Below, in pieces: positions 14,290-59,927 of a stretch of DNA of 64,000 nt. Position numbers and translations under genes: made by a program. Under the pieces are notes generated by a model, which worked only from the letters and a program-made list of their open reading frames with translations, ran no database searches and was not told the origin of the DNA. How positions within the stretch are numbered: the stretch's first letter is position 1; each line of letters begins with the position of its first letter. Source of the stretch: Trichodesmium erythraeum IMS101 (GTDB taxonomy: Bacteria; Cyanobacteriota; Cyanobacteriia; Cyanobacteriales; Microcoleaceae); NCBI RefSeq assembly GCF_000014265.1, contig NC_008312.1, positions 2,936,607-3,000,606 of the forward strand, given 5' to 3'.

Positions 14290-16200
14290 GAGAATATTTA
14301 ATAACCACCCGAAAGAAATAAAAATATTTATTGGTTTTACTGAGCCGGCTGTTTCAAAAATTCAGATAAGGTCTTCAAGTTTTAGCCGAAAATACAAAAT
14401 GGAAATAGCTGAAGGAGAAAAATGATTAATTACAGCAAAAGGCGATAGAAAAAAAATTAAAATTCGAGTGACTCAGGCATTAGAATATCTCAATAACTAT
14501 CCGAAAGAAATAAAAATATTTATTGGTTTTACTGAGCCGGCTGTTTCAAAAATTCAGATAAGGTCTTCAAGTTTTAGCCGAAAATACAAAATGGAAATAG
14601 CTGAAGGAGAAAAATGATTAATTACAGCAAAAGGCGATAGAAAAAAAATTAAAATTCGAGTGACTCAGGCATTAGAATATCTCAATAACTATCCGAAAGA
14701 AATAAAAATATTTATTAGTGTTACTGAGCCGGCTGTTTCAAAAATTCAGATAAAGTCTTCAAGTTTTAGCCGAAAATACAAAATGGAAATAGCTGAAGGA
14801 GAAAAATGATTAATTACAGCAAAAGGCGATAGAAAAAAAATTAAAATTCGAGTGACTCAGGCATTAGAATATCTCAATAACTATCCGAAAGAAATAAAAA
14901 TATTTATTAGTGTTACTGAGCCGGCTGTTTCAAAAATTCAGATAAGGTCTTCAAGTTTTAGCCGAAAATACAAAATGGAAATAGCTGAAGGAGAAAAATG
15001 ATTAATTACAGCAAAAGGCGATAGAAAAAAAATTAAAATTCGAGTGACTCAGGCATTAAAATATCTCAATAACTATCCGAAAGAAATAAAAATATTTATT
15101 AGTGTTACTGAGCCGGCTGTTTCAAAAATTCAGATAAAGTCTTCAAGTTTTAGCCGAAAATACAAAATGGAAATAGCTGAAGGAGAAAAATGATTAATTA
15201 CAGCAAAAGGCGATAGAAAAAAAATTAAAATTCGAGTGACTCAGGCATTAGAATATCTCAATAACTATCCGAAAGAAATAAAAATATTTATTAGTGTTAC
15301 TGAGCCGGCTGTTTCAAAAATTCAGATAAAGTCTTCAAGTTTTAGCCGAAAATACAAAATGGAAATAGCTGAAGGAGAAAAATGATTAATTACAGCAAAA
15401 GGCGATAGAAAAAAAATTAAAATTCGAGTGACTCAGGCATTAGAATATCTCAATAACTATCCGAAAGAAATAAAAATATTTATTAGTGTTACTGAGCCGG
15501 CTGTTTCAAAAATTCAGATAAAGTCTTCAAGTTTTAGCCGAAAATACAAAATGGAAATAGCTGAAGGAGAAAAATGATTAATTACAGCAAAAGGCGATAG
15601 AAAAAAAATTAAAATTCGAGTGACTCAGGCATTAAAATATCTCAATAACTATCCGAAAAAAATAAAAATATTTATTAGTGTTACTGAGCCGGCTGTTTCA
15701 AAAATTCAGATAAAGTCTTCAAGTTTTAGCCGAAAATACAAAATGGAAATAGCTGAAGGAGAAAAATGATTAATTACAGCAAAAGGCGATAGAAAAAAAA
15801 TTAAAATTCGAGTGACTCAGGCATTAAAATATCTCAATAACTATCCGAAAGAAATAAAAATATTTATTGGTGTTACTGAGCCGGCTGTTTCAAAAATTCA
15901 GATAAAGTCTTCAAGTTTTAGCCGAAAATACAAAATGGAAATAGCTGAAGGAGAAAAATGATTAATTACAGCAAAAGGCGATAGAAAAAAAATTAAAATT
16001 CGAGTGACTCAGGCATTAGAATATCTCAATAACTATCCGAAAGAAATAAAAATATTTATTGGTTTTACTGAGCCGGCTGTTTCAAAAATTCAGATAAAGT
16101 CTTCAAGTTTTAGCCGAAAATACAAAATGGAAATAGCTGAAGGAGAAAAATGATTAATTACAGCAAAAGGCGATAGAAAAAAAATTAAAATCCGAGTCGG
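14290..16200. repeat. Tandem array of about 10 copies of a 190-bp unit
   Basis: The unit ccgaaagaaataaaaatatttatt(g/a)gt(t/g)ttactgagccggctgtttcaaaaattcagataa(g/a)gtcttcaagttttagccgaaaatacaaaatggaaatagctgaaggagaaaaatgattaattacagcaaaaggcgatag... restarts at 14309, 14501, 14690, 14880 and so on. Confidence 0.9.
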
Positions 16201-18350
16201 AAATAATATTAAATTTATACTATTTAGGTTATATTTTGACGTTCATTTACTCATTTTTTTGGGAAATTTTGGCAAATATAATTTACTAATATCTACGCCA
16301 TAAATGCGTGCTTTTATATTTTTTTTGCTCCTATTAATAATGATATTTTATATATTATTAGTATTTTTATTTTATCTATCATTTTTTATCAAATTTTTCA
16401 ATAATTTTTTGATTAAAAACTAACAACAAAAAACAGTAAATTAATTTTTTTGTGTGTAGCGATCGCTATAATATAGCACCATATAAATACTAATATATAC
16501 GCCATAAATATGTGATTTTATATTTTTTTGCTCCTATAAATAATTTAGTTTATATATATAAAATTTATTTTTTTTGATGTTATTTTTTAGTAAATTAGCC
16601 AATAAATTTTTGAGTAAAAACTAACAGAAATAAACAGATAATTATTTTTTTCCTGTGGAGCGATCGCTATTAATAGTATTATATCAGTGTTTCTACTTAC
16701 TCCTTAAATGTGTGATGCTGCATTTGTTTTTGCTGCTATAAATTTTGATATTGATATTATATATATAACTATAGTCTAACTGACTTGCAGTTTAGTGCAA
16801 ATCTCTATTTGTTAGATAAAGAGGAGTTGGTGAAGGCTAAACCTTCACCAACTCCCCTCCTATTTTAGGTTTATTATTGATAAAAAAAATACTTTAAATA
16901 CTCTTGAAAATATGACAAAAAAGGGTTAAAAATCAAACAAAAAAAACAATAAAAATGAAATATTGGATAATTATTGAGGCTAAAAAAAGCAGAAATTAAT
17001 TATCGCAATATAGTTTAAATATTTAAAAAAAATTATATTTTATATCAGTCTATTAAACTGTAAAAATATCAGAATAATCAGCTTTTTTTTATCACAATTA
17101 AATCTACAAAATTGCCGAAAATACATACAAAATTTTTTAGGATTAAAACAATTTATTTTACCTATATTCTGATTTTTTTAGTCAATATTCTGATAAGAAA
17201 ATGCTTTTATTTCAATCATAAGTAGTATTAACTTTAGATATAAACTAGTGAAAAAATATCAATATATTAATAATAAGTGTAGTTTAGAAAAAAAGAACAT
17301 TATCTATATACTAAAACAATTAAGTTATCAATATCCAAGTAATATAACAGAACAACAAGGAGTAATTCGTCATATTTTAAGATTATTGAAAAAATTTAAC
17401 TAATTTTAGTAATAGATAGGAAATTACATAGTATCCATCTATCATGTTGGTTAAAAAATTATCCTCAAAAATATCTATACTTTCCATTTCTACAAAAAAA
17501 CGAAATTAAGGGTGCTAGTAAATATTGTAAACTCGAGAAATTAAAAGTAAAATTTGGCTAAAAAAATTATTATTAAATCAAAAAAAATAAAAAAATCAAG
17601 CAAGTCTTTCTATGCAATTTGTTGATATATAAAAAGCGCAAAATTAACCAGAAAAATATATCAAAACCTAGTAAATTATTAGTAATTTATTTTCGCTAGA
17701 TAAAATTAATAAAGTATATAGTCAAAAAATAGAAATCAAGGATATGTTTGAAAAAATGTAATAATTGAAATTACAATTTTGAATAAGCAAAAGCAAACAA
17801 AAAAAATGAAATAATTTTATTGTAGTTTTATTCAATAATAGGTAGAGAATTTAGTACATTACATTCTCATAAGCTACCCTATTATCGAAAAGGAATTAAA
17901 GCTATCTCAAAGATTAATACTCTGTAGAATCGTTTTCTTGTTTTTTTCTTGAATTATCAACTCTTTTTTATAATCTTTTTAAGAGCATTTAGAGTATTTT
18001 TTTTGAATAAATAATCAACTAAAATAGAGGGGAGTTTTTGAAAGCGAAGGGTTCACCAACTCCCCCTTATTAAAAATAAGCTTTCCATTGGACTTGAATT
18101 ACTATTCAGCTTAACCTGTAAATTCCTTGAGATATTTATTTTCCAGCTAGCTTGTCACCCCGTGATCATTTTTACTTAATGTATGGGTATGAAATGATTG
18201 TTATACTTTTTAGTTTAAGTCTTTACAAGCCAACAAGTCGAAAATAATCATTAAATTAAAAAAAACTACTAAAAAGTCGCTTTTCTAGGGCAAGGCTTCA
18301 AACCAAGTTTTTTGGTAATATATTATTGTTGATAAGCTAAAACTTAAGCA
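16200..18350. repeat. Extremely AT-rich non-coding island with internal about 200-bp duplications and two related GC-rich hairpins
   Basis: Segments 16289-16480 and 16489-16680 are diverged copies (ctaatat(c/a)tacgccataaat(g/a)(c/t)gtg...ttgctcctat(t/a)aataa...aaaaactaaca...gcgatcgctat). Hairpins are at 16823-16855 and 18029-18065. There is no ORF of 60 aa or more. Confidence 0.7.
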
Positions 18351-20429: not shown

Positions 20430-21370
20430 CGTAAGGAGATTGACACTCTCCCGACGCTTATCCTACAAGACATTTGCGGAAAATTCCCAATTCATCAATA
20501 TTAAGGGCTTTCTGCTTCATCGTACTTGCCCTCCGAGATTTACTCTCTTCAGGTCTTACAGTCGCGACCCAGACTGACACTGCCTGTCCGGTAGCCAAAA
20601 TGTTTATACTTGCGTTTAGATAACTATCATGGTGACTAGCGCTTTCAGGACAGTCCCATTGTCTAATATTTAAAGATAATTTTTCTACTATATGAATACA
20701 ATTAGAGTAACGTTTAGAACTAGGAAAATATCTGTCAATTTTTATTAATGTACGACTATACCATTGAGCTTTGTATTCTAATTGCTTCACTAATTCTCCC
20801 CAATTAGCATCACTTATTGCTATCGTACTGGGTATACAACCTAGTAGTAATTGCCTGCTCCATCTAATATATAATTGTTCTGCATACTTAGCTAAATAGA
20901 CTTGACCATCTTTACATTTGAAGGCTGACTTTGTAAACGTAGCACTACCAACATTTCTTTTTTTCTTGGAATTAGGATATTTAGTATGTCCACTAAAAAG
21001 GTTATTAGAAGCCGTTTTTAAATATCTTAAGCTTTGCTGTAATACTACACTGCTTACTTCAGGGAGAAAACTTAAATATTCCGGTTTTTTCCAAGAAGTC
21101 AATATAGCTGAAGTTTGTTTATAGCTCACTCTTTCTGGGTGTTCATGCCAAGCTTGAGTTCTAGTTGCTAAAGCTTTGTTGTAGATGAGGTGTATACAAC
21201 CCAAAATCCTCAGCAACAGAATTTCCTGCTCTGGAGTTGGATAAAATCTAAATTTGTATGCTTTTTGGACCATCTACTGCTTAACTTTTAATATTTAAAT
21301 TTTAGAATATTTTTTGTAAGAACACAACATTGATTGGTTTTCATCTCAAAGCTCCCTTAAAGGAGAGCGC
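20430..21370 (-). mobile_element. Non-autonomous IS200/IS605-like element remnant bounded by subterminal hairpins
   Basis: Hairpin ggaga-ttgacac-tctcc at 20435-20451 on the tnpB 3' side, and ctccc-ttaaa-ggagag at 21352-21366 on the 5' side. Both carry the same GGAGA/TCTCC core, as expected for the imperfect palindromes at the ends of this family. Confidence 0.45.
20458..21273 (-). pseudogene. tnpB: Truncated IS200/IS605-family tnpB (OrfB) relic, 271 aa with an internal deletion and degenerate Zn-finger/RuvC-III
   Basis: The N-terminus KAYKFRFYPTPEQEILLLRILGCIHLIYNKAL is the TnpB N-terminal signature. The C-terminus RYFPSSKRYSNC...QWDCPESASHHDSYLNASINILATG matches the Zn-finger/RuvC-III block with substitutions. 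The central RuvC-I/II region is missing: full TnpB is about 400 aa. No tnpA is adjacent. Confidence 0.65.
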
Positions 21371-28917: not shown

Positions 28918-29064
28918 AGGGAGAAAACAGGGAATCATAAACGCACCTCATAACTGGGGGAATTGCTATATAAGTATTAAAATTCTTTAATAAATTACTT
29001 TTGACTTATGACTTTTTAGTTGCCCGTAGCCTTATAATTTCCTCAAAAAAATCAGGAAAAGTTA

Positions 29065-29418
29065 TCAAAAAGTTGAACTATTCCAACCCCAAAGATAACC
29101 TTGAGCATCAGAAAATTCTATATAGATTCGATTTTTAGGAACCCCGAGAGTTTTATTAATTTGTTCACAAAAATCTTGACTCATTTCTTTGGTTTGGTTA
29201 GGCTTCATACTACCAATACTTTTAATTTCTATGTAGCAAGTCGGCTCATCACTATTTCCACCAAAAGTCATGGGAATATCAGATTCAAAGGCTGTCATTA
29301 CGTAAGATTCTGATTTACTAAAATGCTTGGCCATACTAGATGAAAGTTGTTTGAGAAGGTTGTCAATTTTATCTTTTTCTAGTTGGGCAACGGAAGTTTT
29401 GACTTTGATTAATGGCAT
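29065..29418 (-). CDS. MIF-family tautomerase (macrophage migration inhibitory factor / phenylpyruvate tautomerase-like), 117 aa
   Basis: MPLIKVKTSV... N-terminus with catalytic Pro-1 after Met removal; FGGNSDEP, SIG, and the C-terminal IYIEFSDAQGYLWGWNSSTF are MIF signatures. The true start is the internal Met of the 135-aa ORF-track entry. Confidence 0.75.
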   Translation of the reverse strand: MPLIKVKTSVAQLEKDKIDNLLKQLSSSMAKHFSKSESYVMTAFESDIPMTFGGNSDEPTCYIEIKSIGSMKPNQTKEMSQDFCEQINKTLGVPKNRIYIEFSDAQGYLWGWNSSTF

Positions 29419-29544
29419 AGTTCGATTAATAGTTGAGGATGAACAAAATAAACTATTTACGTAGGTCTTCAATTATAAAAGTTAACTAATCAATTGTCTA
29501 TAATAGACCTAAAGAAAGGAAGGGAAAACACATAGAAAAAATAT

Positions 29545-30183
29545 ATGAATATCAAACGGGCATTGAAAAGTATAACTAAGGGAGTTTCGACCTTTGCTGG
29601 ACCTCTGGGGGCTCCTTTTGAAGCATTGCTATATTTCGTTGAGGATAAACAAACACAAGAGCGTGAGGCTCAACTAGATGCAATGATCTTTGAGGTACAA
29701 AGTTTGAACCGTGAAACTCTTGAGGAGATATTTCAAGCTAGAGAGGAAATTAAGGAATTGAGGGCACAATTTATTTTGGCAATGGAAATTTGTTTTTCTA
29801 TTTTAGCTGAAAACAGGAAATTGTTGTTTAGTCCAGATTTAGAACAAAATCTTCCTTTTTTTATTGAACCATATAAGGAACGGTTGGAAGCAAGTGGGTT
29901 GATTACTAATGATGTTTTGGCTGATGCACTTTATCATTGTTATGAAAAAGATGCTCGACTTTTTTTAGCACATATTTCTGCTGATTTTCCTGTGGGAGAA
30001 CTTCGTAGTTATGAGGCTTTACCTGTTATTATTTCTGATTTTTTAACAAGATTTTCTGGTCAGGGATTAAATCAACAAGCTAAAATATTTAAGACTTTAA
30101 GTAAGAAAAATCCAGGTAGTAGACCTTTAAGGGTAAAAAGCTTGATGCTTCAAGAACAAGTGATTAATCAAATAGGGAAGTGA
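29545..30183 (+). CDS. Hypothetical protein (212 aa); its C-terminal module is paralogous to the N-terminal module of the downstream 1204-aa protein
   Basis: ELRSYEALPVIISDFLTRFSGQGLNQQAKIFKTL versus DIRKLTLSDPLLVIISDFFNQCNGLNKNELYKFFRVL in ORF 30194..33808. Same strand; 10-bp gap to the next start. Confidence 0.5.
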   Translation: MNIKRALKSITKGVSTFAGPLGAPFEALLYFVEDKQTQEREAQLDAMIFEVQSLNRETLEEIFQAREEIKELRAQFILAMEICFSILAENRKLLFSPDLEQNLPFFIEPYKERLEASGLITNDVLADALYHCYEKDARLFLAHISADFPVGELRSYEALPVIISDFLTRFSGQGLNQQAKIFKTLSKKNPGSRPLRVKSLMLQEQVINQIGK

Positions 30184-30193
30184 GAAAATATTT

Positions 30194-33100
30194 ATGCCTA
30201 GTGAGTTTGAAAAGGTTCTAGACGAGATTAGAAAACGAAGTAGTAAATATGAAGATATTGGAGATGTTAAGAGGGAAATTATTAATGCGCTTTCACAAAG
30301 ATATAAAACACAGGAACGTTTGTTTACACATTATGTTCTAGAAAAAGGGGGATTTGATATTCGTAAATTAACTTTAAGTGACCCTCTGCTAGTAATTATA
30401 TCTGATTTTTTTAATCAGTGTAATGGTCTAAACAAAAACGAATTATATAAATTTTTTAGAGTGTTATATGATGAAAATAAAGGTATTAGTTTGCTAAAAG
30501 AAATTAGAGATACACTTGTACAATTTAAACATCAAAGTACTGATACTCCTACATATACACCATCACCATACATATCAGTTATTACTTCAGAAGCAATAGG
30601 CTTAGTAGAAGCAAAATATGGACAGTCTCTAGAACAGGGAAAAAACTTTGCTAAAAAAGTTGATTGTAATAATTTTCAGGATGTACAAGCTTTTTTTAAT
30701 AATGGGGGACAAGCTGGTAAACAGCTTGCTATTTTGGAGCCAGGAACCTATTACATTAACCCCGAAATATTCACTATTCGTACAGTTCCTATTATTAGGA
30801 TTCTTCAAGGAGAAATAGGACTGGTAATAGCCAATGAGGGGACTTTTAAGTCTGATGAACAAACGTTAGGTAGAGTGGTGGAATGTGATAACTTTCAGGA
30901 TGCTGAAGCATTTCTGAAAAATGGAGGACAAAAAGGTAAGCAACTTGCTATTTTGACTGACGGTGACTATAAAATTAACACTGATTTCTTTAGCGTAATT
31001 ACTACTACTAATGCCTATAAATATAATGAAAATCCAAATAATTTAAAGGTTTATAAAATCGACAAAGATAAAATTGGTATTTTAACTACGATGGTTGGGA
31101 AAATTCTCCCTAAAGGTGAAATTGCTGGACCAATAATTGAAGGACACGATAATTATCAAAATGCACAAAAATTCCTAGATTTAGGAGGATATAAAGGATT
31201 GCAAGAAGAAGTTCTCCAAGAAGGAGCCTGGAGTCTAAATCCTTGGTTTGTTGAAGTTGAGCAGGTACCACTAACTAGAATTGAGCAAGAAGAGGTGGGA
31301 GTTGTTATATCTTTTGTTGGAAAAGAATATGACAAAAATTATGATCAACAGCCCATTTTTTATGGTGCAGAAAAGTCTCTATACCAATTAGTTCCAAAAG
31401 GGTACAAAGGAGTTCAAAAAGAACCTCTTACTGCTGGTCAATATGCAATTAATACCAGAGTAAAAACGGTCAAATTAGTGCCAACTACCCAAATTATACT
31501 GAATTGGTCAGATCAGAAAAAACATCCCTTAAATTATGACTATGAACTGAAACAAATGAAGCTAATTTCTAGAGACCATTTTGAAATTTTTGTTCAGTTT
31601 ACCCAAATTATTCGTATTGCTGCTGAGAATGCTCCTAAGATGATTTGTATGGTTGGATATTATACAGGGGAAGACAAAATATATGTTACTGATGATTCTG
31701 GGCAAGTTGTTAAGAAATATGCAGTTATTAGAAATTTAGTTTCTCGTGTATTAACAAAAGTTGTTTATAGTCATTTTCAACAAGCTGCTACTGGTAAAAC
31801 GGCAATACAGTTTCTAAACACAAGAGGTGACTCTCAAAAGGAGGCCGAAAATTATATAAAAACACTTCTTGAAATGATTGGTGTTGAAGGATGTGGCACT
31901 TTTATGGTTGATACAGTTAATCTACCTCTAGTAGTTGATTCTTACTTACAAGAGAAACAAAAGCAAGAGGCAAGAGAAGCTCAAGCAAAAGCTGCACCTG
32001 AACGGCTTCTTGAACCTGAATTTGTTGAGAATCCTGAACAACGGCTTCCTGAACCTGAATTTGTTGAGAATCCTGAAAACCGTTGTCCCATTATCCTCCT
32101 ACTGGATACATCTTACTCAATGTCAGGAGAAGCTATTACTGAATTAAATCAAGGAGTGAAAATATTTCAGGCAAGTGTAAAGGAAGATGAACTGGCTTCC
32201 TTAAGAGTAGAAATAGCTGTCATTACTTTTAACAGTGAAATTGAAGTAGTTCAAGATTTTGTTACTGTAGATAAATTTATTCCCAAAACATTAGAAGCAT
32301 CAGGAGTAACGCACATGGGAAAAGCTATTGAAAAAGCCCTAGAATTATTAGAAAAGCGAAAACAAGACTACAAAAATAGCGATATTCAATACTATCGACC
32401 CTGGATCTTTCTAATTACTGATGGGCAACCTACTGATACTTGGCAAGATGCAGCAAAAAAAATAGAAGAAGCTGAAACTAATAGAAAATTACTTTTTTTT
32501 GCTGTTGGGGTAAGAGATGCAGATATGGAGACATTAAGTGAAATTTCTGTATGCCCTCCTAAAAAACTCAACGGCTTAGATTTTCAATCTTTGTTTAAAT
32601 GGCTAAGTTTTTCACTTCAGCAAGTTTCAGTTAGCAAGATAGGAGAAAAGAATAGACTTCCTCCAACGAATGCATGGGAAGAAATAACTAGTAAAAATCA
32701 AAATACTAAACAGACTCAACAAACTCAACAAAAGACAACAATTCCTAATTCTGACCCTAATCCTGAACCAATTATCCCTATCTTAGTTTTAGATAGAGAT
32801 ATTTTTAAAGATCAACGAATTAAGAGTAATTCGGAGGGAGAAATTTGGATAACTCAAAAATATCGCTACCGAAAGAAATACCTAATAAAAATTTATTATG
32901 AAGTTACACCAGCAAGGATAAAAAAGTTAGAAGTAATGGTAGCTTATAAACCGAAAAATTTTCATGGTTCTCAACAAGCGTGGGCTTGGCCTGAGTATTT
33001 ACTAGCAGATAAAACAGGAAAAATTATCGGCTTTGTCATGGAATTTATTGAAGATAGTAAACTGCTATTTAATATTTATAATCCTCAGCGTCGTAAGCAA

Positions 33101-33808
33101 ATAAATAGTCAACTCCACTGGTCAGTAGACTGGCTTTTTCTTCACCATACTGCTAAAAATATTGCTACTATTATTCAGTCTCTTCATAGTCAGGATTATG
33201 TTATTGGAGATATGAAGCCACAAAATATTCTAGTTAACCGATATGCTTCTGCTTCAATAATTAATACAGACTCATTTCAAGTTCGCCATCCTCAGACAAA
33301 AGAAATCTATCATTGTTTAGTTGGTTCCGAAGAATTTACCCCTCCTGAACTATTAGAAAAAGAATTAGCAAAAATTGTTCAAACTCCTACCCATGATAAC
33401 TTTAGATTAGCCCTTATTATCTATCATTTATTATTTGGAGGACATCCCTTTAAAGGAAGGTGGATAGGAACAGAAGAGCCACCCAAAATTGATGAACTCA
33501 TCCGACTAGGTTTCTGGTGCTATGCTCCCAATAGTAAAATTCTACCAGGACCGAGAACTATTCCCCTTGAAATAGTTCACCCCAAAATTCAAAAATGCTT
33601 CCAAAAATGCTTCAACGATGGACACTATCATCCAGAAAAACGACCCACTCCTCAGAACTGGGTTGACGCTTTAGAGAGTGCCATTAATGATTTAGTACAG
33701 TGTAAAAGAGTTGATACCCATTGGTATAGTAAAACTTATGGCAAATGCTATTGGTGCGAAAGAGAAGAAAAATTAGAGGTTGACATATTTTCTGATTCCA
33801 AAACATAA
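30194..33808 (+). CDS. Multidomain signalling protein: N-terminal module + 4 tandem ~80-aa beta-repeats and SPFH/flotillin-like region + vWA domain (MIDAS) + Hanks-type Ser/Thr kinase domain (non-RD) + Cys/His cluster
   Basis: Repeats: (C/E)(N/D)NFQD..AF...GGQ.GKQLAIL..G.Y.IN..(I/F)F four times, then a flotillin-like block HFEIFVQFTQIIRIAAENAPKMICMVGYYTGEDK...FLNTRGDSQKEAENYIKTLLE and a Glu/Ala-rich coil. vWA: ILLLDTSYSMSGEAI (DxSxS) ...ITDGQPTD. Kinase: VAYKP (beta3 Lys), IGDMKPQNILV (catalytic loop), DSF (for DFG), FTPPE (APE). C-terminus KCFQKCFNDGHYH...CKRVDTHWYSKTYGKCYWC. Confidence 0.8.
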   Translation: MPSEFEKVLDEIRKRSSKYEDIGDVKREIINALSQRYKTQERLFTHYVLEKGGFDIRKLTLSDPLLVIISDFFNQCNGLNKNELYKFFRVLYDENKGISLLKEIRDTLVQFKHQSTDTPTYTPSPYISVITSEAIGLVEAKYGQSLEQGKNFAKKVDCNNFQDVQAFFNNGGQAGKQLAILEPGTYYINPEIFTIRTVPIIRILQGEIGLVIANEGTFKSDEQTLGRVVECDNFQDAEAFLKNGGQKGKQLAILTDGDYKINTDFFSVITTTNAYKYNENPNNLKVYKIDKDKIGILTTMVGKILPKGEIAGPIIEGHDNYQNAQKFLDLGGYKGLQEEVLQEGAWSLNPWFVEVEQVPLTRIEQEEVGVVISFVGKEYDKNYDQQPIFYGAEKSLYQLVPKGYKGVQKEPLTAGQYAINTRVKTVKLVPTTQIILNWSDQKKHPLNYDYELKQMKLISRDHFEIFVQFTQIIRIAAENAPKMICMVGYYTGEDKIYVTDDSGQVVKKYAVIRNLVSRVLTKVVYSHFQQAATGKTAIQFLNTRGDSQKEAENYIKTLLEMIGVEGCGTFMVDTVNLPLVVDSYLQEKQKQEAREAQAKAAPERLLEPEFVENPEQRLPEPEFVENPENRCPIILLLDTSYSMSGEAITELNQGVKIFQASVKEDELASLRVEIAVITFNSEIEVVQDFVTVDKFIPKTLEASGVTHMGKAIEKALELLEKRKQDYKNSDIQYYRPWIFLITDGQPTDTWQDAAKKIEEAETNRKLLFFAVGVRDADMETLSEISVCPPKKLNGLDFQSLFKWLSFSLQQVSVSKIGEKNRLPPTNAWEEITSKNQNTKQTQQTQQKTTIPNSDPNPEPIIPILVLDRDIFKDQRIKSNSEGEIWITQKYRYRKKYLIKIYYEVTPARIKKLEVMVAYKPKNFHGSQQAWAWPEYLLADKTGKIIGFVMEFIEDSKLLFNIYNPQRRKQINSQLHWSVDWLFLHHTAKNIATIIQSLHSQDYVIGDMKPQNILVNRYASASIINTDSFQVRHPQTKEIYHCLVGSEEFTPPELLEKELAKIVQTPTHDNFRLALIIYHLLFGGHPFKGRWIGTEEPPKIDELIRLGFWCYAPNSKILPGPRTIPLEIVHPKIQKCFQKCFNDGHYHPEKRPTPQNWVDALESAINDLVQCKRVDTHWYSKTYGKCYWCEREEKLEVDIFSDSKT

Positions 33809-34231
33809 CATTCCCTTGAAAAATTGCTTCAAAATAAAAAGTGGAAAGAAGCTGATTTAGAAACTAAATATATTATGCTAAAGTTTGCAGGAAGAATTGA
33901 TCAAGGATGGTTAGATAAATCATCCCTAGAAAATTTCCCGACTAAAGTTATTCTTCAAATAGATCAACTTTGGCGACAATATTCTGATGAACGTTTTGGC
34001 TTTGCTACACAGAAGCGTATCTATTTAGAAACTGGTAATAAATTAGAACAAATAAATTGGGAAACCTATAATCATTTTGGTGAAAAAGTTGGTTGGCGAG
34101 AAGGGGGAATGTGGAAAAATTACTTCGATCTAGAATTTTCTCTGAATTCACCAGAAGGTCATCTTCCATTCTGTTGTGCTGGTTTTAATGTTTGCTTCAT
34201 TGCTCATCTAGCCCTTCTGAAAGACTTATGA
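33809..34231 (+). CDS. GUN4-like porphyrin-binding domain ORF, in the same frame as and separated by a single TAA from the upstream kinase gene
   Basis: LLQNKKWKEADLETKYIMLKFAGR...ILQIDQLWRQYSDERFGFATQKRIY...FGEKVGWREGGMWKNY...LNSPEGHLP matches the GUN4 domain consensus (W.eAD.eT...IDqLW..S.GrFGF..Q..I...VGW...W....AP.GHLP). 30194 and 33824 are both frame 2, with only the TAA at 33806-33808 between them. Confidence 0.65.
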   Translation, partial: HSLEKLLQNKKWKEADLETKYIMLKFAGRIDQGWLDKSSLENFPTKVILQIDQLWRQYSDERFGFATQKRIYLETGNKLEQINWETYNHFGEKVGWREGGMWKNYFDLEFSLNSPEGHLPFCCAGFNVCFIAHLALLKDL

Positions 34232-34992: not shown

Positions 34993-35484
34993 CTAGCCAC
35001 CATAATTCCAGCCTGTATTTTCTAATAACAGAGGATCTCCCTCACGATGCACACCTGCTGCAATTACTTCTCCTACATACACAGTATGATCCCCTTTTTC
35101 GACAGCACCCATAACTCTACATTCAACATAGCCAAGAGTATCAGAAATAATTGGACAACCAGTTTCCCCCAAATAAAATTCTACCTCTTCAAATTTATTT
35201 CCCACACGACGTTGAGGTTTGAAAAACTGTTGAGCTAAATCTTTTTGCTCTGCTCCTAAGAAACTAAGGGAAAATACTCCACTAGTCTTAATCATGGTAT
35301 GGGATATAGAAGATTTATTAACACAGTTAACAATTAGGGGAGGCTTAAAAGATGCTTGCATTACCCAACTAGCTGTAAAGCCGTTTACTTCATCCCCATC
35401 TTTAACACCACAAATGTATAATCCATGGGGAATTTTACGCAGTATAGTTTTTTTTGCCTGTTCGTCTAGCAAAGTTTTACCCAC
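34993..35484 (-). CDS. Flavin reductase-like (FMN-binding split-barrel) protein
   Basis: LYICGVKDGDEVNGFTASWVMQASFKPPLIVNCVNK...GDHTVYVGEVIAAG is typical of the NADH:flavin oxidoreductase/HpaC-like family; 163 aa. Confidence 0.8.
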   Translation of the reverse strand: MGKTLLDEQAKKTILRKIPHGLYICGVKDGDEVNGFTASWVMQASFKPPLIVNCVNKSSISHTMIKTSGVFSLSFLGAEQKDLAQQFFKPQRRVGNKFEEVEFYLGETGCPIISDTLGYVECRVMGAVEKGDHTVYVGEVIAAGVHREGDPLLLENTGWNYGG

Positions 35485-35964
35485 TATGTACTAAGAATTT
35501 AACATTTTTTATTTTACCTGAAGTGATTAAAATTCATCTTACACTAAACATTTTCAGCGCTTACCCATACTTCACATAAGGACCCCATTTTTAGGAATGA
35601 ATCGCATTTGTCCTCACGGTCATTACATAGCCGTGGGTAAGTCTTAATATTAGGATTTTAAAATTAAACTAATATCATACCTTAAAGTCTATTATCAACA
35701 AGAGCCATAAACTAGAGCTTATTGATAGTTGCCAACTTTAAAAAATAGATAACAAGTTTTGTGGTATAATAAAAAATTTTATTAACTAATTAAATATTTT
35801 TAATTACACATTTTTGAGTTATAAACTCTAAATATATTGTGGCACTATAGTTTTGATAATTCCTATATAGTTGATTTACACTTATGTATTTGTGAGTCAG
35901 GCAGAAATTTCGTACTCATAAAATAAAAACCGCTATAAATTCTAACCACAACAATAAATATCCT

Positions 35965-37788
35965 ATGTCTTCCCTAAACAAATTGATCCAAAAATTCACT
36001 CATCACAAAAATTGGCCCTTCAGATTAATAATATTAACAATTGCTTCAATAGCGATCGCCTGCAACAACATCAAAACCCCCACCACAACCTCAGAAACAC
36101 TCACCGCTCCCGAAACAGATACTTTAGTTTGGGCTAGATATAAAGACTCCGACACCCTTGACCCCCACAAAACAACATCACCCTTATCCAGACAAATAAT
36201 AGACCAAATCTACGATACCCTGCTTACTTTCGACGACCAAGGCAAAATTCAACCTAACCTAGCCAAAGAATGGTCAGTCAACGACAATGGCCAAGAATAT
36301 ACCTTCAAACTCAACGAAAACATCAAATGCCACGACGGCAAAACCTTTAACGCTAATGCCGTAAAATTTACCATAGACAGAGCCATAGACCCCGAAACAG
36401 AAAATAACATCAAAGACAGTTGGGGGCCAATAGAAACAGTAGAAGTCGTAGACGATCTGACAGTTAAAGTAAAAATGACTGAACCCTTTAGCCCTTTTCC
36501 TCGTTTTCTAGCCGACCCTTACTCTAGCATGATTTGTCCCTCAGCCATAAAAACTTACAACAACAAATTTGGTATAGACGGAGTCATAGGTACAGGTCCT
36601 TTTGAATTTGTAGAATGGACTCAAGGGGAACAACTTGTACTGAAAGCTAACCCAAACTACAAAAATTATGGGAGACCCGTAGAAAATTCTGGAACTCCTT
36701 ATATCAAGAAATTAGTAATAAAAACCATTCCGGAAATAGAAGCTCGTTTAGCAGGTATTAATTCTGGAAAAATTCATTTAACTGAACCTCCAATAGCAGA
36801 AATTTCTAATCTAAAGCAAGACTCTAATTTAAAACTTTATACTGCTAAAAATACTGGGCAAATAGTATTTTTAGAATTCGTTACTTCTCGAGCGCCTTTC
36901 AATAAAAAAAAGGCAAGACAAGCAATAGCTTATGGAATAGATGTGAAAAAAGCAACAGAAGAAATCTTAGCAAATTTAGCTAAACCTGCAGAATGTCCCA
37001 TCGTCAATGTTATGTTCCCTAATGATGGTAAACTTTGTTCAGAGTTTAGTATTAAACCAGACCCAGAAAAGGCAAAAACCCTACTAAAAGAACTTGGTTA
37101 TAGTAAAGATAAACCATTAGAAGTAACTCTCCTAACTTGGAAAGGAGGAAACCGTGAAAAAATCCTCGAAAATTTTCAAACTCAACTAAAAGTTGTGGGA
37201 ATAAAAGCCAATTTAGAGACAATGGATATTGGCAGTCTGAATGCCAGAATAAAACAGGAGAATAGTCAAGCAGAAGGCAGAGGTGTTATTGATATGATGG
37301 GATGGTCTTGGTACGACCCAGATTTTCTTTATAAATTGTGGCATTCTCCCGGTTGGATGGGAGGTTATCACAGTGATGAACTTGATAAATTACTAACAGA
37401 AATGCGCACTGCAACTAATTCTAAAGAACAGCAAGAAAAAGTTGTGGCAGTTCAAAAATATTTGCTTAATAATGCTGTGATGGTGCCACTTTATAGTCCT
37501 GGTTGGATGTGGAATTATGTTAGTAGTTTGAATGTAGAAGGTTTTAATATTGGAGCTTTTAATCGACCTTTATTTAATGATATAAAATTATCGACTACTA
37601 CGGAAAAAAAAGAAGGATTTCAGTCTCCTGCAAGTTCTGAAAAAGAAGTAGTAGAGGAGAAAATTAATTCAGAAAAAAATATCAAAAATAAAGATTCTGT
37701 CTCTGAAAAAGAAGTAATAGAAGAGGAAGTTAATTCAGAAAAAAATATCAAAAATAAAGATTCTGTTGCTTCTCCAGAAAATGAATAG
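35965..37788 (+). CDS. ABC transporter substrate-binding lipoprotein, family 5 (peptide/nickel/opine-binding, DppA/OppA-like)
   Basis: Lipobox IASIAIAC. The SBP_bac_5 core is LVWARYKDSDTLDPHKTTSPLSRQIIDQIYDTLLTFDDQGKIQPNLAKEWSVNDNGQEYTFKLNENIKCHDGKTFNANAV. The C-terminal low-complexity tail has a duplicated SEKEV(V/I)EE.(I/V)NSEKNIKNKDSV. Confidence 0.85.
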   Translation: MSSLNKLIQKFTHHKNWPFRLIILTIASIAIACNNIKTPTTTSETLTAPETDTLVWARYKDSDTLDPHKTTSPLSRQIIDQIYDTLLTFDDQGKIQPNLAKEWSVNDNGQEYTFKLNENIKCHDGKTFNANAVKFTIDRAIDPETENNIKDSWGPIETVEVVDDLTVKVKMTEPFSPFPRFLADPYSSMICPSAIKTYNNKFGIDGVIGTGPFEFVEWTQGEQLVLKANPNYKNYGRPVENSGTPYIKKLVIKTIPEIEARLAGINSGKIHLTEPPIAEISNLKQDSNLKLYTAKNTGQIVFLEFVTSRAPFNKKKARQAIAYGIDVKKATEEILANLAKPAECPIVNVMFPNDGKLCSEFSIKPDPEKAKTLLKELGYSKDKPLEVTLLTWKGGNREKILENFQTQLKVVGIKANLETMDIGSLNARIKQENSQAEGRGVIDMMGWSWYDPDFLYKLWHSPGWMGGYHSDELDKLLTEMRTATNSKEQQEKVVAVQKYLLNNAVMVPLYSPGWMWNYVSSLNVEGFNIGAFNRPLFNDIKLSTTTEKKEGFQSPASSEKEVVEEKINSEKNIKNKDSVSEKEVIEEEVNSEKNIKNKDSVASPENE

Positions 37789-39015: not shown

Positions 39016-39984
<969 letters not shown>

Positions 39985-57382: not shown

Positions 57383-59580
57383 TTCAGTTATTAGTTATCA
57401 GTTATCAATACTTATCCCACTCAGTATTCGGCTTGAAATACTGAAGTTTATTTTTTGATTCTTAAGACTTACCTTTTTCCTGTAGAAGGTAAGTCTAACA
57501 AATAAAATTTTAATTTACCCCGTGAGAAATTTTTGCCTTTTATCCAAATTTATTTGGGAAAATATAGGTTTACCAGAAATAAACTTTTCAAAGAAAATTT
57601 TATAGTTACTCCTATATCAGTTATCAGTTATCAATACTTATCCCACTCAGTATTCGGCTTGAAATACTGAAGTTTATTTTTTGATTCTTAAGACTTACCT
57701 TTTTCCTGTACAAGGTAAGTCTAACAAATAAAATTTTAATTTACCCCGTGAGGAATTTTTGCCTTTTATCCAAATTTATTTGGGAAAAGATAGGTTTACC
57801 AGAAATAAACTTTTCAAAGAAAATTTTATAGTTACTCCTATATCAGTTATCAGTTATCAATACTTACCCTACTCAGTATTCGGCTTGAAATACTGAAGTT
57901 TATTTTTTGATTCTTAAGACTTACCTTTTTCCTGTACAAGGTAAGTCTAACAAATAAAATTTTAATTTACCCCGTGAGGAATTTTTGCCTTTTATCCAAA
58001 TTTATTTGGGAAAAGATAGGTTTACCAGAAATAAACTTTTCAAAGAAAATTTTATAGTTACTCCTATATCAGTTATCAGTTATCAATACTTACCCTACTC
58101 AGTATTCGGCTTGAAATACTGAAGTTTATTTTTTGATTCTTAAGACTTACCTTTTTCCTGTAGAAGGTAAGTCTAACAAATAAAATTTTAATTTACCCCA
58201 TGAGGAATTTTTGCCTTTTATCTAAATTTATTTGGGAAAATATAGGTTTACCAGAAATAAACTTTTCAAAGAAAATTTTATAGTTACTCCTATATCAGTT
58301 ATCAGTTATCAATACTCACCCTACTCAGTATTCGGCTTGAAATACTGAAGTTTATTTTTTGATTCTTAAGACTTACCTTTTTCCTGTAGAAGGTAAGTCT
58401 AACAAATAAAATTTTAATTTACCCCGTGAGGAATTTTTGTCTTTTATCTAAATTTATTTGGGAAAATATAGGTTTACCAGAAATAAACTTTTCAAAGAAA
58501 ATTTTATAGTTACTCCTATTTACTATTGCACTTTTTCTGTAGAAGTTAGGTCTAACAAATAGATTTTTTTTCAACAAGAAAAAATTTTGGGATTTCATCT
58601 AGAGGATGAACTGAAAAGATAAAATTTCATATTATCTAAATTTATTTGGGAAAATATAGGTTTACCAGAAATAAACTTTTCAAAGAAAATTTTATAGTTA
58701 CTCCTATTTACTATTGCACTTTTTCTGTAGAAGTTAGGTCTAACAAATAGATTTTTTTTCAACAAGAAAAAATTTTGGGATTTCATCTAGAGGATGAACT
58801 GAAAAGATAAAATTTCATATTATCTAAATTTATTTGGGAAAATATAGGTTTACCAGAAATAAACTTTTCAGAGAAAATTTTATAGTTACTCCTATTTACT
58901 ATTGCACTTTTTCTGTAGAAGTTAGGTCTAACAAATAGATTTTTTTTTCAACAAGAAAAAATTTTGGGATTTCATCTAGAGGATGAACTGAAAAGATAAA
59001 ATTTCATATTATCTAAATTTATTTGGGAAAATATAGGTTTACCAGAAATAAACTTTTCAGAGAAAATTTTATAGTTACTCCTATTTACTATTGCACTTTT
59101 TCTGTAGAAGTTAGGTCTAACAAATAGATTTTTTTTTCAACAAGAAAAAATTTTGGGATTTCATCTAGAGGATGAACTGAAAAGATAAAATTTCATATTA
59201 TCTAAATTTATTTGGGAAAATATAGGTTTACCAGAAATAAACTTTTCAGAGAAAATTTTATAGTTACTCCTATTTACTATTGCACTTTTTCTGTAGAAGT
59301 TAGGTCTAACAAATAGATTTTTTTTTCAACAAGAAAAAATTTTGGGATTTCATCTAGAGGATGAACTGAAAAGATAAAATTTCATATTATCTAAATTTAT
59401 TTGGGAAAATATAGGTTTACCAGAAATAAACTTTTCAGAGAAAATTTTATAGTTACTCCTATTTACTATTGCACTTTTTCTGTAGAAGTTAGGTCTAACA
59501 AATAGATTTTTTTTTCAACAAGAAAAAATTTTGGGATTTCATCTAGAGGATGAACTGAAAAGATAAAATTTCATAATTAC
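57383..59580. repeat. Composite tandem repeat field: 5 copies of a 228-bp unit (57383-58520), then about 6 copies of a 190-bp unit (58480-59580), sharing a common core
   Basis: Unit A contains the hairpins cagtat-TCGGCTTGA-atactg and AGACTTACC-tttttcctgtagaa-GGTAAGTCT. Unit B contains ttttttc-aacaa-gaaaaaa. Shared core is aatttatttgggaaaatataggtttaccagaaataaacttttca.agaaaattttatagttactcctat. Confidence 0.9.
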
Positions 59581-59927
59581 TCCTAACATCAGGAAATAAG
59601 TTATTACAAAAGTGTGTTGATCACTTAATAACTGAAATGTTACCTAAATATAGGATAAATTCATAATAATTGGTATAACAAATAGATTTTTTTTCTTCAA
59701 CAAGAAAAAAATTTTGCCTTTGGCATAAACTCAGAAAAATAAATATTTACCAGATAGAATTGTATCTCTCGGAAAAGCTTTATAAATTCCTAGTCATTAT
59801 AGAATTTTATAGGTAAGAGATAAGTCTTAAAAATATAATTTTATTGTCACTATGTGAGTAATTTTTACCTTTTCTCTTGATTCCAAAAAAATAGAGGTTT
59901 ACTAAACAATAAAATTCTTGCTTATTC

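What the first reader, a model, noticed from the sequence alone, without database searches (positions are those of the whole stretch)
29065..34231. TerY-P-like signalling locus: flotillin/SPFH-like + vWA + Hanks kinase fusion, with a paralogous small ORF and a divergent MIF tautomerase
The 1204-aa protein joins four tandem beta-repeats and an SPFH/flotillin-like block to a vWA domain with an intact MIDAS (DTSYSMSG) and a non-RD eukaryotic-like Ser/Thr kinase, followed by a Cys/His cluster. The 212-aa ORF immediately upstream shares a roughly 35-aa module (VIISDF....GLN....F..L) with its N-terminus. A MIF-family tautomerase gene is divergently adjacent. vWA + kinase (+ phosphatase) triads are known as TerY-P modules, but fusion of vWA and kinase in one polypeptide with an SPFH-like scaffold and a GUN4 tail is not an architecture I recognise.
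Basis: partly seen in the sequence, partly recalled or inferred. Interest (0 to 1): 0.8.

Follow-up and report, generated by a model that had tools for sequence, protein, structure and literature searches.

The report
Deletion-collapsed TerY-P/SPFH defence-like cassette
The odd 1204-residue "flotillin + vWA + kinase" protein of Trichodesmium erythraeum is real, but it was made by three in-frame deletions that welded together pieces of a conserved multi-gene cyanobacterial cassette, losing the phosphatase, the membrane anchor and a key kinase catalytic residue on the way.

Summary
The fusion is not a designed architecture. Sister Trichodesmium contigs and Microcystis carry the same parts as separate genes: small adaptor ORF; adaptor/protease-GUN4; membrane-anchored beta-repeat-SPFH-coiled-coil-vWA giant; a TM/coiled-coil + OmpA-like pair; then a classical TerY-P triad (vWA, PP2C, Ser/Thr kinase-Zn-ribbon) whose kinase ends in GUN4. 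IMS101 has three in-frame deletions (adaptor|SPFH, SPFH|vWA, vWA|kinase), which removed one GUN4 domain, the membrane anchor, the coiled coil, four genes including PP2C, and the kinase 5' end. A TAC->TAA change cuts off the second GUN4. The kinase DFG aspartate is Asn and the domain evolves at dN/dS about 1.2-1.3, while the vWA is still constrained (0.36). The shared "35-aa module" is a ~100-aa terminal adaptor that behaves like an effector-associated domain. The beta-repeats plus SPFH resemble the major vault protein in fold. The window holds an eroded variant of a known kind; the intact cassette behind it appears undescribed and is the more interesting object.

The parts
29065..29418 (-). 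MIF-family tautomerase gene (117 aa, Met-Pro start). It is a flanking gene at the island border, not part of the cassette.
   Evidence: Pfam MIF 5.9e-20; called as 117 aa in all contigs; MPLIKV start; absent next to the Microcystis and Okeania KiyG1 cassettes.
29545..30183 (+). Tery_1916, 212-aa adaptor protein: N-terminal FAGPL..AP/LYEDE motif, coiled coil, and C-terminal ~100-aa adaptor module (residues 107-206, nt 29863-30162).
   Evidence: Homologues in Okeania and Trichodesmium; module HMM; the whole unit is fused to the C-terminus of larger proteins, one with a P-loop motif and only sub-threshold nSTAND6/AAA_16 hits; all-helical but low-confidence model.
30194..33808 (+). Tery_1917, 1204-aa mosaic ORF.
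30233..30529 (+). Adaptor module (residues 14-112). It is orthologous to the N-terminus of a module-GUN4 protein that is a separate 325-aa gene in another Trichodesmium lineage.
   Evidence: Window 28975-30577 = L018 5959-7558 at 94.5% DNA identity; residues 1-129 are 86% identical to L018 GUN4_325 residues 1-127.
30577..30581 (+). Deletion junction 1 (adaptor | SPFH repeats). It removed the first GUN4 domain, the SPFH membrane anchor and the N-terminal repeats.
   Evidence: DNA homology to L018 ends at 30577; no TM segment in the IMS101 protein, TM at ~72-115 in intact homologues.
30578..32005 (+). Three to four vault-like beta-repeats plus SPFH/Band_7 domain (residues ~129-604).
32006..32083 (+). 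Deletion junction 2 (SPFH | TerY-type vWA), marked by a tandem 39-nt duplication (35/39 identical) encoding LEPEFVENPEQR / LPEPEFVENPENR.
   Evidence: homology to the stand-alone vWA gene of L011 starts at 32046.
32046..32698 (+). TerY-type vWA domain with intact MIDAS. It is orthologous to the stand-alone triad vWA, not to the SPFH protein's own C-terminal vWA.
   Evidence: 97.9% DNA identity to L011 2254-2906; 54% to the Okeania stand-alone vWA against 43% to the SPFH C-terminal vWA; 72% to the Microcystis triad vWA; dN/dS 0.36.
32692..32740 (+). Deletion junction 3 (vWA | kinase) and Q/T-rich repeat linker. About 1.1 kb is missing: the vWA stop, the whole PP2C gene and the first ~60 kinase codons.
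   Evidence: ACTAGT|AAAAATCAAAAT with short microhomology.
32804..33643 (+). Non-RD Ser/Thr kinase domain. K899, D1006 and N1011 are present, but the DFG-equivalent Asp is Asn (N1024, AAT at 33263-33265) and the glycine loop is degraded (S879N, G880S).
   Evidence: Pfam Pkinase; alignment to PDK1 and to canonical IIDFG homologues; codons; dN/dS 1.18-1.34.
33701..33757 (+). C-terminal zinc-ribbon-like C-x5-H-x8-C-x2-C, conserved in the Okeania and Microcystis orthologues.
33806..33808 (+). TAA stop where sister lineages have Tyr (TAC in L011). It splits the kinase-GUN4 protein.
33809..34231 (+). GUN4 domain (Tery_1918, called from TTG at 33824), in frame with Tery_1917. It is the C-terminal domain of the kinase in all other alleles.
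   Evidence: Pfam GUN4 9.8e-34; continuous in P0139, P0142, P0145 and P0151 and in 6 of 6 triad loci.

Best explanation
Tery_1916-1918 is a deletion-collapsed remnant of a conserved cyanobacterial multi-gene cassette. In intact form (Microcystis; pieced together from sister Trichodesmium contigs) the cassette encodes, in order: a small adaptor protein; an adaptor- or protease-GUN4 protein; a membrane-anchored giant with vault-like beta-repeats, an SPFH domain, a coiled coil and a C-terminal vWA; a multi-TM/coiled-coil protein plus an OmpA-like protein; and a TerY-P triad (vWA, PP2C phosphatase, Ser/Thr kinase with Zn ribbon) whose kinase carries a C-terminal GUN4. Shown: in the IMS101 lineage three in-frame deletions fused the adaptor module, the SPFH core, the triad vWA and the kinase into one 1204-aa ORF. 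These deletions removed one GUN4 domain, the membrane anchor, the coiled coil, the SPFH protein's own vWA, the two membrane-protein genes and PP2C. A TAC->TAA mutation detached the remaining GUN4. Inferred: the intact cassette is a conflict/defence- or stress-type signalling system. An SPFH/vWA membrane scaffold and a kinase/phosphatase switch, both linked to tetrapyrrole-binding GUN4 domains, would control a caspase-like effector recruited through the adaptor module. Inferred: the IMS101 version can no longer work as a phospho-switch, because it has no phosphatase, the DFG Asp is Asn and the kinase is unconstrained. It is either a decaying relic or at most a soluble vWA/SPFH scaffold that still binds Tery_1916 through the module.
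For: Separate genes in relatives with segment-wise orthology: Okeania KiyG1; Trichodesmium L011, L015, L016, L017 with vWA-PP2C-kinase-GUN4 at the syntenic site; L018/L019 with small ORF, module-GUN4 and TM-SPFH. Base-level junctions. Microcystis operon with every gene orthologous (42-72% identity). Five further metagenome loci with p340-p270-vWA-PP2C-kinase-ZnR-GUN4. TerY-P definition: PMC11090510. Stop codon = Tyr in sister alleles. DFG Asp->Asn only in the two PP2C-less alleles. dN/dS: kinase 1.18-1.34, vWA 0.36, housekeeping neighbours 0.11-0.26. No TM segment in IMS101. No remnants of PP2C, p340, p270 or a protease in the window. The syntenic site in Okeania SIO3H1 is eroded to a 177-aa stub plus kinase fragments. 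Adaptor behaviour of the module.
Against: All three deletions are in frame (about 1/27 by chance if independent and random). The ORF has stayed open for 3.6 kb in a 33% GC genome. The same junctions 2 and 3 are kept open in partial proteins from St18/St19 bins that are ~6-9% diverged in protein. The vWA is under purifying selection and its MIDAS is intact. So some function of the fused protein may be selected. dN/dS near 1 in the kinase is also seen between unfused and fused alleles (L011 vs L037, 1.05) and could reflect diversifying selection typical of defence genes rather than decay. Substitution counts are small. No expression data were found. The function of the intact cassette is inferred from domain content only.
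Confidence: 0.8

Rival explanations
1. The fusion is a functional, selected single-chain signalling protein. The SPFH scaffold, vWA and a pseudo- or atypical kinase act as one unit, docked to Tery_1916 through the shared module, with GUN4 supplied in trans from the downstream ORF.
For: Three in-frame junctions and a 1204-codon open frame. Junctions 2 and 3 are kept open in St18/St19-bin fragments ~6-9% diverged in protein. vWA dN/dS 0.36 and intact MIDAS. The GUN4 ORF is still intact and 98.6% identical in protein to the L011 GUN4 domain. Fusion of adaptor-linked partners to core components is a recognised theme for EADs (PMC7159879).
Against: DFG Asp->Asn plus glycine-loop losses. Kinase dN/dS 1.2-1.3. 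Loss of the membrane anchor, coiled coil and PP2C, which are conserved in Microcystis and other loci. A nonsense mutation splits GUN4 only in IMS101-type sequences. A related Okeania has eroded the same site almost completely.
Confidence: 0.3
2. The architecture is an assembly or annotation artefact, or the TAA is a sequencing error or a read-through codon, so that the true product is a 1346-aa protein ending in GUN4.
For: GUN4 is in frame directly after the stop, and continuous versions exist in other bins.
Against: The identical 1204-aa protein and a separate 135-aa GUN4 ORF are found on at least 23 contigs from NCBI, ENA and Logan samples and on the 7.75-Mb genome record. No read-through signal was looked for or is known here.
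Confidence: 0.03

Closest known systems
TerY-P triad (TerY-like vWA + PP2C phosphatase + Ser/Thr kinase fused to a C-terminal zinc ribbon; Anantharaman et al. 2012 as summarised in PMC11090510; kinase-OB variants shown to be antiphage by Gao et al. 2020, as cited there)
   Same: The sister allele L011 and five other loci have exactly this gene order and domain content. The window retains the vWA and the kinase-ZnR, 93-95% identical in protein to the L011 versions.
   Different: The kinase carries an extra C-terminal GUN4 in all six loci. The triad is preceded by a TM/coiled-coil + OmpA-like gene pair and often by an SPFH-vWA giant. In the window PP2C is deleted, vWA and kinase are one polypeptide, and the DFG Asp is lost. 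PADLOC's TerY model matches only weakly (E 0.005).
Effector-associated domains (EADs) and bacterial Death-like adaptors of conflict systems in multicellular bacteria (Kaur et al. 2020, PMC7159879; 2021, PMC8195603)
   Same: The module is small, non-enzymatic, predicted helical and always terminal. One copy lies in one gene and a second in the adjacent gene. It is fused elsewhere to GUN4, CHAT, TRADD-N, a PNP phosphorylase with bDLD1, and STAND NTPases.
   Different: No Pfam EAD or bDLD model reaches threshold (best EAD1 E 0.04). hhalign to a single bDLD1 sequence is negative. The core partner here is an SPFH-vWA protein rather than a MoxR/VMAP, STAND or GAP1 NTPase.
SPFH cage proteins (HflK/C, prohibitin, stomatin, flotillin) and the eukaryotic major vault protein
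   Different: No sequence-level Vault Pfam hit. This family is distinct from the true bacterial MVP homologues reported in Moorea and others (10.1101/872010). The intact proteins are membrane-anchored and end in a vWA domain. The window copy has lost the anchor and the coiled coil.
Cyanobacterial GUN4-fusion proteins (kinase-GUN4, orthocaspase-GUN4)
   Same: Kinase-GUN4 and caspase-GUN4 architectures are noted in PMC7159879 and in orthocaspase surveys.
   Different: Here two GUN4 proteins occur in one conserved operon with an SPFH-vWA giant and a TerY-P triad. In the window one GUN4 is deleted and the other is cut off by a stop.

Membership tests
TerY-P triad | TerY-like vWA domain with MIDAS | tested here: met
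   Pfam VWA 6.5e-14, D638xSxS; orthologous to the stand-alone triad vWA of L011 and Microcystis. Assignment to the TerY subfamily itself is weak (PADLOC TerY E 0.005).
TerY-P triad | Adjacent PP2C-family phosphatase gene | tested here: not met
   No PP2C anywhere in the 64-kb window (tblastn). It is present (PP2C_2, 4.4e-50) in sister alleles L011, L015 and L016 and was removed from IMS101 by a ~1.1-kb deletion.
TerY-P triad | Ser/Thr kinase fused to a C-terminal zinc ribbon | tested here: met
   Pkinase 5.2e-11; C1170-x5-H-x8-C-x2-C conserved in the Okeania and Microcystis orthologues.
Catalytically competent eukaryotic-like protein kinase | VAIK Lys, catalytic-loop Asp/Asn, DFG Asp, glycine-rich loop | tested here: not met
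   K899, D1006 and N1011 are present. The DFG-equivalent Asp is Asn1024 (Asp in all unfused alleles, Okeania, Microcystis and canonical homologues). The glycine loop is reduced to one Gly.
SPFH / Band 7 | SPFH alpha/beta fold | tested here: met
SPFH / Band 7 | Membrane anchoring and C-terminal coiled coil for cage assembly | tested here: not met
   No hydrophobic segment in the window protein, and the coiled coil is deleted. Intact homologues have a TM at ~72-115, and the Okeania KiyG1 homologue has a ~170-aa charged, coiled-coil-like linker by inspection.
Flotillin | SPFH followed by the flotillin-specific coiled-coil domain; closest fold match among SPFH proteins | tested here: inconclusive
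Major vault protein | Sequence membership (Pfam Vault repeats / MVP shoulder) | tested here: not met
Effector-associated domain (EAD)-type adaptor | Small non-enzymatic terminal domain, with one copy on a system component and another on the protein of the adjacent gene | tested here: met
   Module in Tery_1916 (C-terminus) and Tery_1917 (N-terminus). The same pairing occurs in Okeania KiyG1, Okeania SIO3B5 and L018. It is terminal in nearly all of the 56 library hits.
Effector-associated domain (EAD)-type adaptor | Other copies fused to effector or signalling domains | tested here: met
   GUN4 (9 of 49), CHAT, TRADD-N, PNP_UDP_1 + bDLD1, CTP_transf_like, NB-ARC/nSTAND.
Effector-associated domain (EAD)-type adaptor | Sequence or fold relationship to a named EAD or Death-like family | tested here: inconclusive
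   EAD1 hits are sub-threshold in 3 of 49 proteins (best E 0.04; in P0225 the hit lies exactly on the module). hhalign to a single bDLD1 sequence is negative. The AF2 model is all-helical but has pLDDT 46.
GUN4 | GUN4 porphyrin-binding domain | tested here: met
   Pfam 9.8e-34. Porphyrin binding itself cannot be tested here.
MIF / tautomerase superfamily | MIF fold with N-terminal catalytic Pro after Met | tested here: met
   Pfam MIF 5.9e-20; the gene starts MPLIKV.

The most novel reading that the evidence does not exclude
The intact cassette that the window's relic points to is a previously undescribed cyanobacterial immunity or programmed-cell-death system. It consists of adaptor, protease-GUN4, membrane-anchored vault-like SPFH-coiled-coil-vWA giant, a MotAB/ZorAB-like membrane pair, and a TerY-P triad with kinase-ZnR-GUN4. 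It is found next to an integrase in Microcystis and next to relaxase/T4SS genes in Iningainema. In this reading an SPFH cage and a kinase/phosphatase switch read envelope and tetrapyrrole status and release a caspase-like effector. The pairing of a vault-like protein with vWA partners would then echo eukaryotic vaults (MVP with the vWA-bearing vPARP and TEP1; that vWA content is from my own knowledge, not from a tool).
Probability: 0.4. Interest if true: 0.75.

Novelty: new variant of a known kind. Interest (0 to 1): 0.5.

Why it matters
For genome annotation, this shows that a striking "new architecture" in the Trichodesmium reference strain is a scar of deletions and should not be read as a designed multidomain sensor. 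That fits this genome's unusually low coding density (PMC4143802). More broadly, the comparison uncovers a conserved operon in the bloom-forming cyanobacteria Microcystis and Trichodesmium. The operon joins a TerY-P phospho-switch, two GUN4 tetrapyrrole-binding domains, a caspase-type protease, a vault-like SPFH-vWA membrane giant and an unnamed adaptor domain. If it controls cell death or phage defence, it would bear on bloom collapse, where caspase-like activity in Trichodesmium has long been discussed. It would also give a testable bacterial context for vault-like repeat proteins.

Tried and rejected
The genome-contig scan with the whole protein found only three distant kinase relatives (Kuenenia, Pirellulales) and no orthologous locus.

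PADLOC gave only generic kinase hits (PD-T4-6, mad6, MkoA) and no system-level match. ZorA/ZorB hits to the p340/p270 pair are weak and lie mostly in coiled-coil or OmpA-like regions, so I did not file the pair as Zorya.

The small-ORF structure prediction was too poor (pLDDT 46) for a fold search. The module is not TRADD-N, because in the Okeania SIO3B5 protein it lies N-terminal to a separate TRADD-like_N hit. It shows no hhalign signal to a single bDLD1 sequence.

The promoter/terminator scan was no better than shuffles for promoters. No paper mentions Tery_1916-1918, and the IMS101 transcriptome paper has no supplement held as text.

True bacterial MVP homologues (10.1101/872010) are a different family. 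The first GUN4 dN/dS figure was a codon-misalignment artefact and was recomputed. MIF as a system component was rejected on synteny.
Full report
**1. What is in the window**

The four ORFs exist as described. Pfam hits above the curated cut-offs confirm:
- Band_7/SPFH (residues 363-600), VWA (633-789) and Pkinase (945-1155) in the 1204-aa protein;
- MIF in the divergent upstream gene;
- GUN4 in the downstream ORF.

Exact-sequence look-ups identify the genes as Tery_1916 (212 aa), Tery_1917 (1204 aa, annotated "von Willebrand factor, type A") and Tery_1918 ("GUN4-like") of Trichodesmium erythraeum IMS101. The same 1204-aa protein with the same neighbours is present on at least 23 contigs from independent NCBI, ENA and Logan assemblies, so it is not an assembly artefact.

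Four details need correcting:
- The MIF gene is 29065..29418 (117 aa, starting Met-Pro), not the longer TTG ORF.
- There are three clear beta-repeats plus one degenerate one.
- The module shared with the small ORF is about 100 aa.
- GUN4 is not a tail. It follows a single TAA stop in the same reading frame, and the GUN4 sequence begins before the called TTG start.

**2. The fusion is unique; its parts are separate genes in relatives**

Of 974 homologues, the best 120 all share the repeat/SPFH block, and about a third of them also end in a vWA domain. None has the kinase, GUN4 or the N-terminal 130 residues.

In Okeania sp. KiyG1 the same parts are separate genes: vWA (221 aa), kinase-Zn-ribbon (365), small ORF (210), module-GUN4 (316) and SPFH-coiled-coil-vWA (1077). 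Segment-wise identity to the window protein:

| Window residues | Okeania KiyG1 gene | Identity |
|---|---|---|
| 48-108 | N-terminus of the GUN4 protein | 52% |
| 128-604 | SPFH protein | 69% |
| 623-833 | stand-alone vWA | 54% (only 43% to the SPFH protein's own vWA) |
| 874-1199 | kinase | 43% |

**3. Sister Trichodesmium alleles give the junctions at base resolution**

At the syntenic site (upstream of a 63-aa ORF, flavin reductase, an SBP_bac_5 protein and hetR), contig L011 carries vWA (234 aa), PP2C_2 (259 aa; Pfam 4.4e-50) and kinase-GUN4 (572 aa). L015 and L016 show PP2C and kinase-GUN4 before their contigs end, and L017 shows kinase-GUN4. This is the TerY-P triad as defined in the literature: TerY-like vWA, PP2C, and Ser/Thr kinase with a C-terminal zinc ribbon (PMC11090510).

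- **Junction 3 (vWA | kinase).** Window 32046-32698 matches L011 2254-2906 (97.9%), and window 32698-35500 matches L011 4035-6835 (98.5%). IMS101 therefore lacks about 1.1 kb holding the vWA stop codon, the whole PP2C gene and the first ~60 kinase codons. The join (ACTAGT|AAAAATCAAAAT) lies at a short microhomology inside a Q/T-rich repeat and keeps the frame.
- **What lay upstream.** Upstream of its vWA, L011 has a 340-aa multi-TM/coiled-coil protein, a 270-aa protein with a weak OmpA hit, and the tail of an SPFH-type vWA.
- **Junction 1 (adaptor | SPFH).** Contigs L018/L019 give the left half: MIF, small ORF, a 325-aa module-GUN4 protein, and an SPFH protein with an N-terminal membrane anchor. 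Window 28975-30577 matches L018 at 94.5%. Residues 1-128 of Tery_1917 are therefore the N-terminus of the module-GUN4 gene, after which the window jumps into the SPFH repeats.
- **Junction 2 (SPFH | vWA).** It sits at a tandem 39-nt duplication (35/39 identical) at 32006-32083.
- **The stop.** The stop at 33806-33808 is TAA, where L011 has TAC (Tyr). All other alleles read ...DSKTYHSLEKLL... straight into GUN4.

The 1204-aa ORF is thus the product of three in-frame deletions plus one nonsense mutation.

**4. The undeleted arrangement is conserved far outside Trichodesmium**

In Microcystis aeruginosa (L020) the operon reads Pepco (139 aa), caspase-GUN4 (540), TM-SPFH-coiled-coil-vWA (1405), p338, p216, vWA (222), PP2C (256), kinase-ZnR-GUN4 (648), then an integrase. 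Each gene is orthologous to the Trichodesmium pieces:

| Microcystis gene | Trichodesmium counterpart | Identity |
|---|---|---|
| p338 | L011 p340 | 43% |
| p216 | L011 p270 | 43% |
| vWA | L011 vWA and window vWA | 72% |
| PP2C | L011 PP2C | 60% |
| kinase-GUN4 | L011 kinase-GUN4 | 57% |
| SPFH N-terminus (with TM) | L018 SPFH N-terminus | 46% |

Iningainema has GUN4, then SPFH-vWA, then p340, next to relaxase and T4SS coupling-protein genes.

A metagenome scan with p340 found five further loci with p340-p270-vWA-PP2C-kinase-ZnR-GUN4. The kinase carried GUN4 in 6 of 6 triad loci. The SPFH-vWA giant lay upstream in a subset only, and p340/p270 also occur alone.

**5. State of the IMS101 copy**

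- It has no hydrophobic segment, whereas intact homologues have a strong TM at ~72-115.
- No remnant of PP2C, p340, p270 or a protease is found in the 64-kb window.
- Alignment to PDK1 and to canonical IIDFG kinases places the DFG aspartate on Asn1024 (AAT; GAT in L011). This substitution is found only in the two PP2C-less alleles (IMS101 and St18_bin1). IMS101 has in addition S879N and G880S in the glycine loop.

Nei-Gojobori dN/dS:

| Segment | Comparison | dN/dS |
|---|---|---|
| Kinase | IMS101 vs L011 | 1.18 (6 synonymous, 28 nonsynonymous) |
| Kinase | IMS101 vs St18_bin1 | 1.34 (7 synonymous, 36 nonsynonymous) |
| vWA | IMS101 vs St18_bin1 | 0.36 |
| Small ORF | IMS101 vs L018 | 1.23 |
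| Module | IMS101 vs L018 | 0.70 |
| GFO_IDH (neighbour) | IMS101 vs L018 | 0.11 |
| proB (neighbour) | IMS101 vs L018 | 0.26 |
| GUN4 | IMS101 vs L011 or St18_bin1 | too few changes to judge |

Relative to L011, the flanking genes are almost identical (0-7 differences) while the triad region is 2-3% diverged. This suggests recombination or hypervariability at this island.

In Okeania sp. SIO3H1 the same site is eroded to a 177-aa stub (module plus SPFH start) and two short kinase fragments beside flavin reductase.

Together this supports progressive deletional decay of an ancestral cassette in the Trichodesmium/Okeania clade. IMS101 is an intermediate stage whose kinase/phosphatase switch is no longer operative.

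Several points run against pure decay: the in-frame junctions, the long open frame, retention of junctions 2 and 3 in fragments from St18/St19 bins ~6-9% diverged in protein, and the constrained vWA. I therefore keep a 0.3 rival in which the fused protein is a selected scaffold.

**6. The module**

A profile of the module finds it in four contexts:
- the C-terminus of the small ORF;
- the N-terminus of Tery_1917;
- the N-terminus of module-GUN4 proteins;
- the N-terminus of a module/TRADD-N/CHAT/GUN4 protein in Okeania SIO3B5, where it lies upstream of a separate TRADD-like_N hit.

Against 1.84 billion representatives it has 56 hits and is terminal in nearly all of them. Its partners are GUN4 (9 of 49), CHAT, TRADD-N, a PNP_UDP_1 phosphorylase carrying bDLD1, a nucleotidyltransferase and STAND NTPases (NB-ARC, nSTAND3/6). 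There is one Death_3 hit, whose position relative to the module I did not check, and sub-threshold EAD1/EAD7 hits. In two proteins the whole small-ORF unit is fused to the C-terminus of a larger protein; one has a P-loop motif and sub-threshold nSTAND6/AAA_16 hits.

This matches the published operational definition of effector-associated domains (PMC7159879). No named family reaches threshold, the bDLD1 comparison is negative, and the structure model is poor. I therefore treat it as an unnamed adaptor of the EAD kind.

**7. The repeat/SPFH block**

An AlphaFold model built with 45 sequences is confident (pLDDT 87, pTM 0.77).
- Foldseek's best matches over the whole length are major vault proteins (E 7.5e-9). 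Prohibitin, stomatin, erlin, HflK/C and flotillin match the C-terminal part only.
- There is no Vault Pfam hit, and the reported bacterial MVP homologues are a different family.

The resemblance is at the level of fold and layout, not family membership.

**8. How it most likely works**

- **Shown:** the gene content, orthology, junctions and residue changes above.
- **Established for the families:** TerY-P triads are thought to act as phosphorylation switches, and related kinase-OB versions defend against phage (PMC11090510). GUN4 binds tetrapyrroles and has been proposed as an allosteric sensor in cyanobacterial conflict systems (PMC7159879). SPFH proteins form membrane-attached cages, as in the solved structures matched. 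EADs couple effectors to core components by homotypic contacts.
- **Inferred for the intact cassette:** a membrane-anchored SPFH/vWA scaffold and a membrane pair (p340/p270; only weak ZorA/ZorB-type hits) report envelope state. The vWA-PP2C-kinase switch, modulated by GUN4, sets a threshold. A caspase/CHAT-GUN4 effector is recruited through the adaptor.
- **Inferred for IMS101:** with no anchor, no phosphatase, no protease and a kinase lacking the metal-binding Asp, the locus can at most provide a soluble vWA/SPFH scaffold bound to Tery_1916. More probably it is a relic.

**9. Novelty and score**

The window feature is a new, degenerate variant of a known kind (TerY-P). The conserved cassette around it, and its adaptor module, were not found in the searchable literature. 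They are the part worth following up. Overall interest is 0.5.

Noticed in passing
L020 5959-17332 (Microcystis); L022, L025, L026, L028, L032: A conserved operon p340-p270-vWA-PP2C-kinase-ZnR-GUN4, preceded in some loci by protease-GUN4 and a TM-SPFH-coiled-coil-vWA giant. It lies next to an integrase in Microcystis and to relaxase/T4SS genes in Iningainema (L021). It appears undescribed in the searchable literature.
   Followed up: partly
L011 348-2179; L020 12285-13948: The p340 (multi-TM plus repetitive coiled-coil tail) and p270 (TM plus OmpA-like) pair gives weak PADLOC hits to ZorA and ZorB. It also occurs alone in several metagenome loci. It may be a MotAB/ZorAB-like membrane sensor.
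   Followed up: partly
window 32046-34231 versus flanks 34993-37788 (compared with L011): Against the sister contig L011, the triad region is 2-3% diverged while flavin reductase, hetR and the other flanks are 99.6-100% identical. This suggests allele exchange or hypervariability confined to the island.
   Followed up: partly
window 32699-32740; L011 3930-4060: The Q/T-rich linker (NTKHTQQTQ units) encoded by an imperfect ~27-nt tandem repeat varies in copy number between alleles (kinase-GUN4 of 572, 546 and 545 aa). It is where deletion junction 3 lies.
   Followed up: partly
L018 9680-10309: This Trichodesmium contig carries a fragment of the p270 gene, then a short stretch I did not identify, then a duplicated copy of the small-ORF 3' end plus module. 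All contigs of this population break here, which suggests repeated rearrangement at the locus.
   Followed up: no
L012 / L013 (MAG labelled Crocosphaera sp., syntenic MIF...flavin reductase): The same chromosomal site holds a different variant: an IS605-family OrfB gene, an SPFH-vWA protein of 1226 aa, and on the opposite strand a Peptidase_C14 + HATPase_c_4 protein with a 129-aa ORF. There is no TerY-P triad.
   Followed up: no
window 35965-37788: The SBP_bac_5 protein ends in a tandemly repeated acidic segment (SEKEV.EE.(I/V)NSEKNIKNKDSV, two copies). Its length varies between assemblies (607 against 585 aa in L006).
   Followed up: no
window ~20458-21273 (-) and ~39016-39921 (-), by offset from L004: By synteny with L004, a TnpB/Cas12f1-like IS605 OrfB gene lies about 9 kb upstream of the locus and hetR about 5 kb downstream.
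   Followed up: no
window 16001-18000 and 58001-60000; 12001-14000: Two very AT-rich stretches (GC 0.22 and 0.25), and a stretch with strong GC skew (0.41) at GC 0.40.
   Followed up: no
L025 4439-8094 and 11276-12961: One metagenome locus has a ~3.6-kb insertion between the triad vWA and PP2C, and a second p340-p270 pair downstream of the kinase-GUN4 gene.
   Followed up: no
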